Shown: positions 24,290 through 24,999 of the stretch, one piece after another
Numbering within the stretch: the first letter of the stretch is position 1
Layout of the letters: each line of letters starts with the position of its first letter
From: Candidatus Kuenenia stuttgartensis
Lineage (GTDB): Bacteria; Planctomycetota; Brocadiia; Brocadiales; Brocadiaceae
Assembly (NCBI RefSeq): GCF_900232105.1
Contig: NZ_LT934425.1
Coordinates: forward strand, 3,630,001 to 3,662,000
Length of the DNA stretch: 32,000 bases
Direction of reading: 5' to 3'
Program-made: the position numbers and the translations under genes
Notes under the pieces: model-generated
Seen by the model: the letters and a program-made list of their open reading frames with translations, nothing else
Told to the model about the DNA's origin: nothing
Database searches by the model: none

Positions 24290-24916
24290 ATGACTTTTTA
24301 TGATGTAACCGTACCCATATCAAATGCCATGATTACCTGGCCATCCGACCCTGCGGTATCGATTACTGGAACAAGCCTGATTTCCCGGGGAGATTTTTGT
24401 AATCTTTCTGAATTAAAAATAGGTTCGCATTGCGGCACTCATATTGACGCTCCCAGCCATTTTCTGGAAAACGGCAGGACAATTGACCAGCTTGCCCTTG
24501 AAAATCTGATAGGCGAAGCAACGGTATTTGAGTTTAAAAACAAAGAAAATATCGACGTAAGTGATATAAAGCAATTGCGATTTGACAATGTAAAAAGGGT
24601 TCTTTTTAAAACAGTCAACTCATCATACTGGAAATTTTCCACCTTTAAAAAAGATTTTGTTTACTTAACAAAAGATGCGGCGCAGTACTTAGTAGACAAG
24701 GGAATAAGACTTGTTGGAGTCGATTATCTTTCAGTAGAAAAATTTGAAAGCCAACTGGCAGAAACACATCACACTCTTTTGCGAAACGACGTCATTATTC
24801 TCGAAGGCCTGGATTTATCAAATGTTGAGCGTGGAAGGTATGAATTAATTGCATTGCCATTAAAAATAAAGGACGGCGATGGAAGCCCGGCACGGGTTGT
24901 TTTAAAAAGTACCTAA
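24290..24916 (+). CDS. Cyclase-family protein (kynurenine formamidase-like metal hydrolase)
   Basis: RBS AAGGGGAG then ATG 24290. The family motif HxGTHxDxPxH appears as SHCGTHIDAPSHF. The track start 24248 lies inside a hairpin repeat. Confidence 0.8.
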   Translation: MTFYDVTVPISNAMITWPSDPAVSITGTSLISRGDFCNLSELKIGSHCGTHIDAPSHFLENGRTIDQLALENLIGEATVFEFKNKENIDVSDIKQLRFDNVKRVLFKTVNSSYWKFSTFKKDFVYLTKDAAQYLVDKGIRLVGVDYLSVEKFESQLAETHHTLLRNDVIILEGLDLSNVERGRYELIALPLKIKDGDGSPARVVLKST

Positions 24917-24999
24917 GCTGGCATAGACAGAACCAAACAAGCGCAAAAAACAGTCTACAGTCTACAGTCTACAGTCTACAGTCTACAGTCTACAGTCTA
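24914..24999 (+). repeat. Family-C box anchored on the stop codon, followed by (CAGTCTA)x7
   Basis: TAAGCTGGCATAGACAGAACCAAACAAGC (24914-24942; the TAA is the cyclase-family stop), then GCAAAAAA, then seven perfect CAGTCTA units at 24951-24999. Confidence 0.9.

What the first reader, a model, noticed from the sequence alone, without database searches (positions are those of the whole stretch)
24914..24999. Conserved ~29-nt box that begins on the stop codon of several genes and is followed by heptamer arrays
Six related boxes occur in the window. Those whose first triplet is the stop codon of the upstream gene, in the gene's own orientation, are:
- 24914 (+) TAAGCTGGCATAGACAGAACCAAACAAGC, where the TAA is the stop of the cyclase-family gene.
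- 20892 (-) TAAACTGGCATAGACAGAACTAAACAAGC, where the TAA is the stop of the 20890..21912 gene.
- 29923 (-) TAAGCCGGAACCAAACAAGC, a short form, where the TAA is the stop of the Tat-DUF362 gene.
- 6221 (+) TAGAATAGCATAGACTGCACCGAACAAATC, a degenerate form, where the TAG is the stop of the GspM-like gene.
The remaining two are not on an annotated stop:
- 8759 (+) TAGGCTGGCACAGCCGGAATCAAACAAGC, 13 nt after the methyltransferase stop.
- 8990 (+) TAAGCCGGCACAGCCGAAATCAAACAAAC.
Each box is followed by a variable heptamer-phased tract. Part of the box can form a small hairpin (GGCTG-GCA-CAGCC). I do not recognise this as a described element. It could be a mobile or recombining cassette that targets or supplies stop codons, a 3'-UTR processing, stability or termination signal, or a protein-binding site marking gene ends.
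Basis: seen in the sequence. Interest (0 to 1): 0.65.

Follow-up and report, generated by a model that had tools for sequence, protein, structure and literature searches.

The report
End of an unclassified jumping element
The box is the left end of a small jumping DNA element with about 140 copies in this bacterium, and its full-size relatives encode an unannotated enzyme shaped like a plasmid-copying enzyme rather than like a familiar transposase.

Summary
The box is real but is not a gene-end signal. The genome (size matches Ca. Kuenenia stuttgartiensis MBR1) holds 143 copies. Only 7 sit on a stop codon (4.9% against 1.7% expected), and there is no orientation bias.

The box is the left end of a non-autonomous mobile element (here 24913-25031). 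The element has a second conserved right end, no terminal inverted repeats and no target duplication, and it inserts at C^CTA. Its own first bases, CTAA, supply a stop when it lands at a gene end. Precise empty alleles exist in a sister species. The interiors (heptamer arrays and other repeats) are interchangeable passengers.

The same two ends flank a single ~505-aa ORF in a metagenome contig, in other anammox bacteria and on a Paraburkholderia plasmid. A sister element of this family has 23 near-identical copies in this genome. The protein has no Pfam or NCBIfam match, thousands of homologues, a predicted TBP-like fold (shared with Rep_trans initiators), Rep_trans-like D/D/YxK/RxE motifs and a C-terminal winged helix.

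Best reading: an IS91-like rolling-circle IS family driven by a non-HUH tyrosine transesterase. Mobility is shown by comparison of genomes; the chemistry is inferred.

The parts
24913..24942 (+). Left end of the element: CTAA, 4-bp stem with 5-nt loop (24918-24930), then AACCAAACAAGC. Its TAA (24914-24916) is the stop of the cyclase gene.
   Evidence: 47 bits on the matrix of 143 copies. The same motif begins autonomous elements L210, L184 and L124.
24950..25004 (+). Passenger heptamer array (ACAGTCT x7.9), the variable interior
   Evidence: TRF. The orthologous site in G002 has the same box with a different interior.
25005..25031 (+). Right end of the element (shortened form, ending GATAACGTA)
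   Evidence: 30.6 bits on the right-end matrix of 105 copies, hit at 25011
25032..25035 (+). 3' half of the target site (CTAC; consensus CTA[A/T/C])
   Evidence: 76 of 105 right ends are followed by CTA. Boundary inferred from empty alleles and from autonomous copies.
24248..24916 (+). Cyclase-family gene (PF04199) whose stop is supplied by the element; start codon uncertain
   Evidence: Orthologues in box-free G003 and G001 run 4 and 6 codons further.
25084..25992 (-). Cation-efflux (CDF) gene, convergent neighbour, not part of the element
20864..20893 (-). Second left end, supplying the stop of ORF 20890-22011; followed by 9-mer and palindromic modules; no right end found
   Evidence: 41.5 bits. 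Shared with G002; the orthologues in G001 and G003 end differently.
8758..8988 (+). Left end plus inverted AAATACG-type arrays: a 231-nt unit absent from G002
8989..9018 (+). Left end in direct repeat with 8759; G002 has one hybrid box at this site
   Evidence: 32.8 bits; alignment
29904..29924 (-). Short left end (9 nt deleted) on the stop of the DUF362 gene, followed by AAATACG-type arrays
   Evidence: Also present in G002.
6221..6249 (+). Possible decayed left end (borderline). The stop TAG is ancestral: G003 has the same C-terminus.
   Evidence: 11.9 bits
6250..6310 (-). Truncated right-end fragment in the opposite orientation
   Evidence: Reverse complement shown, compared by eye with the right ends; below 5 bits because the last ~12 nt are missing

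Best explanation
The box is the left terminus of a non-autonomous derivative (MITE-like, mostly 100-700 nt) of an unclassified insertion-sequence family. The autonomous members are ~1.65-1.7 kb long and carry one 505-520-aa ORF. SHOWN: two fixed, dissimilar ends; insertion without duplication; a target preference (C^CTA for the box clade, C^AC in 9-mer repeats for the resident sister element); autonomous elements with the same ends; recent multi-copy spread of a family member. PREDICTED: a TBP-like catalytic domain with D20, D251, Y322-x-K324 and R330-x-E332 in the order of Rep_trans motifs N', I, III and IV, plus a MarR-like winged helix. INFERRED: the enzyme nicks one strand through a 5'-phosphotyrosine and copies the element out as a single-stranded circle, as IS91 does. 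The right end (next to the fixed target bases) would be the origin and the hairpin box the terminator. The circle joins at a target matching the end tetranucleotide. Because the element starts with CTAA, an insertion at an in-frame C^CTA near a gene's 3' end gives an immediate stop and is tolerated, which explains the stop-codon cases. The interior is free to vary and has collected other repeats. The cognate enzyme of the box clade was not found in this genome, so these copies are probably old.
For: Census and pairing: 143 left and 105 right ends; 43 left ends have a right end on the same strand within 104-695 nt; none has one on the opposite strand within 2 kb. Two precise empty alleles against G002, with the core present once. 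No left/right concordance of core variants in 55 paired elements, so the repeated CTAA is not a duplication. Autonomous elements with the box upstream of the ORF and a TAAG..A|CTA-like right end: L210 (30.3 bits; 99th percentile of shuffles 0.0), L184 (20.6), L124 (14.9). They fall in one 100/100 clade. Six identical boxes in G124 all lie at contig ends, as expected for a collapsed IS. Resident sister IS: 22 full copies with 0-3 differences plus 1 interrupted copy. Empty paralogous alleles at 5 of 22 copies show C^AC without duplication. One contig in run X16 skips the element, ends CT..GT. Fold: pLDDT 93.6 and 95.1. For residues 1-390, ranks 1-4 and 6 among 48,161 chains are TBP or TBP-complex entries (Z 6.8-8.3), rank 5 is RepDE (Z 6.9, rmsd 4.7, 178 aligned) and rank 7 the Geobacillus Rep (Z 6.8, rmsd 4.6, 188 aligned). 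Foldseek 4CIJ prob 0.94. Conserved residues match the motif list in PMC5714925 and PMC6499999.
Against: No biochemical evidence. The Rep_trans link is weak in numbers: Foldseek E 2.5e-3 with an unrelated cyclase ranked first; Z below 8, where the tool warns of common arrangements; profile-profile comparison with 14 Rep_trans proteins gave 0.1% probability; no PF02486 hit among the 25 families listed for 74 members. No clean circle junction was seen in Logan contigs of 4 runs (contigs drop rare forms). 100 of 143 left ends and 62 of 105 right ends are unpaired within 700 nt. No box-clade transposase was found in G000 (25 of 25 candidates scored, all 24 matches are the sister IS) or in draft G002. 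The sister IS's own left end scores -11.9 on the box matrix. Right-end scores of autonomous copies on the Kuenenia matrix are mostly weak (16.3, 5.2, 0.6, -1.2, -6.1, -24.5), so the right-end link rests on the terminal motif and, for L184 and L181, on similarity seen by eye. The assignment of origin and terminator is by analogy only.
Confidence: 0.7

Rival explanations
1. Same element and same enzyme, but top-strand nicking at CT^AA at both ends, as Rep_trans and MOB_T proteins nick their origins. The box would be the origin, and CTAA a shared core recombined conservatively.
For: CTAA begins the element and follows its right end. The MOB_T / Rep_trans nick site is CT'AA (PMC9371924). Left ends outnumber right ends 143 to 105, as one-ended events from a left origin would give.
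Against: The sister IS has no shared core (C^AC). Several box-clade elements start CCAA but end before CTA (L124, G048). In MOB_T the nick lies in the hairpin loop, whereas here CTAA lies at the foot of the stem.
Confidence: 0.15
2. The element moves by double-stranded excision and integration (IS110-like or site-specific recombination), and the conserved tyrosine and acidic residues serve another chemistry.
For: No terminal inverted repeats, no duplication and a defined target are also features of IS110-type elements (recalled). One contig skips the element precisely.
Against: The fold matches TBP and Rep_trans chains; no RuvC-like, integrase or serine-recombinase chain is among the top 50 (absence is inconclusive). 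The skipping contig is more simply a strain without the insertion. Resident IS110, integrase and Y1 genes are not flanked by these ends.
Confidence: 0.1
3. The box is a host signal marking gene ends (terminator, RNA processing site or protein-binding site).
For: About 3-fold enrichment on stop codons. 36 of 61 boxes downstream of a same-strand gene have their TAA end within 66 nt of its stop. 43 sites are shared with G002.
Against: No orientation bias (p=0.50). Boxes are also close to gene starts on the other strand. There is no U-tract. Absent from 2 of 3 congeners. Polymorphic insertions exist, and the same motif ends autonomous elements.
Confidence: 0.04

Closest known systems
IS91 family (IS91, IS801, IS1294, ISCR)
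   Same: Two functionally distinct ends, no terminal inverted repeats, no target duplication, a short target next to one end, subterminal palindromes (PMC13181058 passages)
   Different: IS91 transposases are HUH enzymes. This protein shows no HUH or Y2 Pfam hit among the families listed, has a predicted TBP-like fold, and uses different ends and targets.
Rep_trans initiators (pT181 RepC/RepD, RepSTK1, inovirus Rep) and MOB_T relaxases (PF02486)
   Same: TBP-like fold; D/D/E with YxK on beta strands in the same order; CTAA at the ends recalls the CT'AA nick site
   Different: No sequence-level match; a ~390-aa catalytic region with large insertions; Tyr-to-Glu spacing of 10 residues against 23-28; encoded alone by an IS, not by a plasmid, phage or ICE
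Rep-Arvir (RepSNJ2, DUF7845), PMC13107129
   Same: TBP-like catalytic domain followed by a MarR-like winged helix; link to Rep_trans visible only by structure
   Different: Replication initiator of archaeal viruses and plasmids with a downstream origin hairpin; DUF7845 is not among the Pfam families listed for 74 members; not described as a transposase in the passages read
Helitrons (features recalled, apart from 'no duplication, RCR-like transposase')
   Same: On the bottom strand the element ends in a GC hairpin followed by CTAG or TTAG; no duplication; non-autonomous copies with captured interiors
   Different: Eukaryotic; HUH Rep-helicase enzyme; A^T target
Heptamer arrays around four-helix-bundle (PF05635) genes, and TAACTGA repeats of Beggiatoaceae (PMC4679880)
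   Same: Tandem 7-mers in intergenic DNA. In this genome 7-mer arrays flank several PF05635 genes, and one box element in G006 leads into a gene that looks like a four-helix-bundle protein by eye.
   Different: The arrays are passengers: only 6 of 23 and 11 of 32 arrays of two types lie within 200 nt downstream of a box

Membership tests
IS91 family | HUH (Y2) transposase | tested here: not met
   No HUH or Y2 Pfam family among those listed for 74 members (25 of 43 families shown) or for P0001; no invariant histidine in the alignment; predicted fold is TBP-like
IS91 family | No terminal inverted repeats; two distinct ends | tested here: met
IS91 family | No target duplication; short target preference beside one end | tested here: met
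IS91 family | Single-stranded circular intermediate; one-ended transposition | tested here: inconclusive
   No clean junction in the contigs of 4 runs. Many unpaired ends, but deletions also explain them.
Rep_trans (PF02486) / MOB_T | Sequence profile match | tested here: not met
   PF02486 finds nothing in G000; hhalign 0.1%
Rep_trans (PF02486) / MOB_T | TBP-like fold with the catalytic Tyr on a beta strand | tested here: met
   Predicted model only: TBP Z 8.3, RepDE Z 6.9, 4CIJ Z 6.8; Y322 lies in strand E317-324
Rep_trans (PF02486) / MOB_T | D, D, E metal triad and YxK in motifs N', I, III, IV | tested here: inconclusive
   D20, Y322, R330 and E332 invariant, D251 and K324 >=90% in 74 sequences, in the right order. 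Spatial superposition could not be checked; motif II was not identified.
Rep_trans (PF02486) / MOB_T | Nicking with a 5'-phosphotyrosine adduct | not testable with these tools
   Needs biochemistry
IS110 / IS1111 | DEDD transposase (PF01548) between these ends | tested here: not met
   The 8 resident PF01548 loci have no box or right end within 1.5 kb; the ORF between the ends has no such domain
IS200/IS605 and REP-RAYT | Y1 transposase (PF01797) between or beside the ends | tested here: not met
   15 of 22 Y1 matches examined: none is flanked by both ends; 2 have a single box nearby
Classical MITE (DDE-derived) | Terminal inverted repeats and target duplication | tested here: not met
Integron attC site | RYYYAAC ... 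GTTRRRY inverted pair and cassette arrays | tested here: not met
   No inverted partner within the Kuenenia elements; copies are dispersed on both strands; none of 9 integrase matches is flanked by both ends
Rfam RNA families | Covariance-model hit | tested here: not met
   Only a c-di-GMP riboswitch and 6S RNA elsewhere in the window
Named ISfinder family | Entry in ISfinder | not testable with these tools

The most novel reading that the evidence does not exclude
The box marks a large, undescribed class of prokaryotic insertion sequences (7,491 clusters at 50% identity match at E<=0.001). Their transposase is a Rep_trans/TBP-fold tyrosine transesterase, commonly labelled as a MarR or ArsR regulator or as hypothetical. 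This would be rolling-circle transposition evolved independently of the HUH superfamily, with clade-specific targets, no duplication and interchangeable cargo between minimal ends.
Probability: 0.55. Interest if true: 0.9.

Novelty: categorically new. Interest (0 to 1): 0.8.

Why it matters
In the review passages I read, rolling-circle transposons (IS91, Helitrons) are tied to HUH-type initiators. Rep_trans proteins are listed there only for plasmids, phages and ICEs. A transposase with the Rep_trans fold would add a catalytic class to the list of transposases.

It would also give a function to thousands of proteins now labelled 'MarR regulator' or 'hypothetical', and would explain a share of the intergenic repeats in anammox genomes. 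One member has spread recently (23 near-identical copies) in an organism used for wastewater nitrogen removal. Short ends, free cargo and duplication-free insertion make the family directly testable in E. coli.

Tried and rejected
Gene-end signal: rejected by the census. Target duplication: rejected, although one empty allele has TTAA at both ends. Resident IS110, integrases, Y1 and four-helix-bundle genes as the mobiliser: none is flanked by both ends (the IS110 boundary part of that script failed and was not used). The 697-aa gene inside two long elements lies in opposite orientations in the two, so I read it as a nested insertion; I did not run it against a family library. attC and Rfam gave nothing.

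Re-targeting of the left junction as the cause of interior swaps is not supported: 0 of 105 and 0 of 35 right ends are followed directly by a box. My early reconstruction of the empty 24914 site (note) used the wrong boundary and is withdrawn.

Searches with no useful result: viral contigs; phages; plasmids by DNA; PHROGs, Pfam and NCBIfam; PDB by sequence, winged helix only; Atlas; hhalign against Rep_trans; circle junctions. The matches in L020 (inside an ORF) and L018 (probably misbinned) were set aside. Three of the 43 shared sites were out of register and were kept in the counts.

Literature: none of the listings from my 10 searches shows a description of this element or family. Two of these searches were aimed at background. 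The library is open-access only, and I could not query ISfinder. For eight papers I read keyword passages only: PMC9371924, PMC6499999, PMC13107129, PMC5854607, PMC4853749, PMC4679880, PMC13181058, PMC5714925. Supplements were closed; annotation tables for PMC5854607 could already name the 23-copy element. The Helitron end structure and the IS110 features are recalled.

Full report
OBSERVATION. The window lies at 3,630,001-3,662,000 of a single 4,406,153-base contig. That size equals Ca. Kuenenia stuttgartiensis MBR1 in Table 1 of PMC5854607. An iterated weight matrix finds 143 copies at >=18 bits, against 1 and 0 on one strand after column shuffling. Four window copies score 33-47 bits, 29923 is a 9-nt-deleted form, and 6221 is borderline at 11.9 bits.

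STOP CODONS. I used my own gene calls (2,958 confident genes of 3,689). 141 of 143 boxes are intergenic and 7 begin on a same-strand stop. The background is 28 of 1,645 non-coding CCTAA sites (p=0.012). The gene on the left ends there in 61 cases and starts there in 80, as for random intergenic positions (p=0.50). The window holds 2 of the 7 cases. At 24914 and 20892 the box-free species G001 and G003 have different last codons; at 6221 the stop is ancestral.

THE BOX IS A LEFT END. Upstream of the box only a C is conserved. Downstream come variable modules and then a second conserved motif ending GATAAGGTA|CTAA (105 copies). 43 of 143 boxes have this motif on the same strand within 104-695 nt, and none has it on the opposite strand within 2 kb. 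In the window the unit is 24913-25031. The two ends are not inverted repeats.

DISTRIBUTION. The exact box is in G000 and G002 (95 hits) but not in G001, G003 or 36 other relatives. A relaxed pattern hits 11 of 299 genomes of the phylum, with no hit for the reversed control. The stem shows compensatory changes CTGG/CCAG, CCGG/CCGG and GCGG/CCGC.

EMPTY SITES. I compared about 0.7 of 3.7 Mb of G002. Of its 80 boxes, 65 had a flank match in G000: 43 sites are shared, 9 lack a scoring box, 11 did not align up to the junction and 2 were ambiguous. The reverse comparison gave 43, 7, 9 and 4. Of the 16 no-box rows, two are precise empty alleles with the core present once; the rest are decayed boxes, deletions or rearrangements. 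In 55 paired elements, core variants at the left and right do not co-occur, so the repeat is similarity between end and target, not duplication. At shared sites the first 100 nt of interior differ in 23, partly differ in 6 and agree in 14. One site keeps both flanks around interiors only 30% identical. At 24914 itself, G002 has another interior and lost its right end by a join at a 10-nt microhomology. The cause of the swaps is open; gene conversion fits better than re-insertion, because no right end abuts a box.

THE AUTONOMOUS PARTNER. In G124 six identical boxes all end at contig breaks. Their continuation, found in metagenome contig Ga0272441_10134230, is a box, a 505-aa ORF and a right end TAAGGGA|CTAC. 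Homologues with box-like ends occur in other Brocadiales. They also occur on Paraburkholderia plasmid NZ_CP014580.1, annotated 'ArsR family regulator', where the left end scores 30.3 bits on the Kuenenia matrix. These form one clade (100/100, 7 rows). G000 has no member of that clade in my searches (the last two scored only 17 of 29 and 5 of 32 candidates). It does carry a sister element with a 518-aa protein (29% identical): 22 full copies with 0-3 differences and one interrupted copy. Empty paralogous alleles at 5 copies show insertion at C^AC with no duplication, inside 9-mer repeats. A contig in run X16 skips the element with ends CT..GT. The sister element has its own non-autonomous copies (26 left ends, 16 paired, mostly ~175 nt) with heptamer interiors.

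THE PROTEIN. It has no Pfam, NCBIfam or PHROG family beyond weak winged-helix hits. The models are confident. Residues 393-518 are a MarR-like winged helix. Residues 1-390 match TBP (Z up to 8.3), RepDE (Z 6.9) and the Geobacillus Rep 4CIJ (Z 6.8) ahead of other folds, and weakly an inovirus Rep. D20, D251, Y322-x-K324 and R330-x-E332 are conserved in the order given for Rep_trans motifs. In one search the alignment starts with model residue 13 on RepDE residue 39, which would put D20 on the metal ligand D46 if that strand is gap-free (inference). Against this: the Z-scores are middling, the Foldseek E-values are 2.5e-3 or worse, and profile-profile comparison with 14 Rep_trans proteins is not significant. 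The archaeal Rep-Arvir family has the same architecture and a similarly faint signal.

MECHANISM. Shown: defined dissimilar ends, no duplication, target preference, autonomous and non-autonomous forms, recent spread of a family member. Inferred: tyrosine-mediated single-strand nicking and a circular single-stranded intermediate, as for IS91, with the right end as origin because the fixed target bases adjoin it, and the hairpin box as terminator. A top-strand nick at CT^AA, as at Rep_trans and MOB_T origins, is the main alternative. No clean circle junction was seen in the contigs of 4 runs. Stop supply follows from the CTAA start of the element and from selection against insertions elsewhere in genes.

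COMPARISON AND NOVELTY. The element works like IS91 but fails the HUH test. It has the Rep_trans fold by prediction but fails the profile test. It is not IS110, IS200/IS605, a classical MITE or attC. My paper searches (listed under Tried and rejected) showed no description of it, but the library is open-access only and ISfinder could not be checked.

VERDICT. That the box is the end of a non-autonomous element of this IS family: about 0.93. That the enzyme is a Rep_trans-like rolling-circle transposase with the end roles given above: about 0.7. That this is also undescribed: about 0.55. Interest 0.8.

Noticed in passing
G000:C1:185293-186995 and 22 other places (L125-L139): Recently spread 1.7-kb sister IS with a long target consensus, AACCACRRANNNC^ACRRA, inside 9-mer repeats. 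How a target of this length is read is unexplained.
   Followed up: partly
L184:1335-1400; also L180, L182, L183, L053, L054, L102-L104: Box-clade elements carry an internal inverted copy of the left end, forming a long hairpin upstream of the start codon (z -7.7 for L184).
   Followed up: partly
L057, L193, L213 and G000:C1:4377423: Short tandem duplications of the last bases of the right end plus target, in distant members; possibly a signature of the mechanism.
   Followed up: no
G002:C4:39567-39753 (L152): Two convergent boxes 162 nt apart; G000 has only a collapsed hairpin of the two left tips.
   Followed up: no
L069 (G006:C46): A box followed by heptamer arrays and a gene that looks like a four-helix-bundle protein; heptamer arrays also flank several PF05635 genes in G000.
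   Followed up: partly
window 7517-7686, 13912-14079, 19581-19644, 22295-22421, 26115-26708: Other intergenic repeat families (palindromic and heptameric) that also occur as modules inside box elements.
   Followed up: no
window 11988-12069 and 22090-22271: c-di-GMP-I-GGC riboswitch and 6S RNA.
   Followed up: no
G000:C1:604135-606774 and 2580829-2583444: Box elements holding a nested 697-aa gene, in opposite orientations in the two copies.
   Followed up: no
L188 (G336:C220): An autonomous element's right end is followed directly by a left-end-like sequence, a possible tandem insertion.
   Followed up: no
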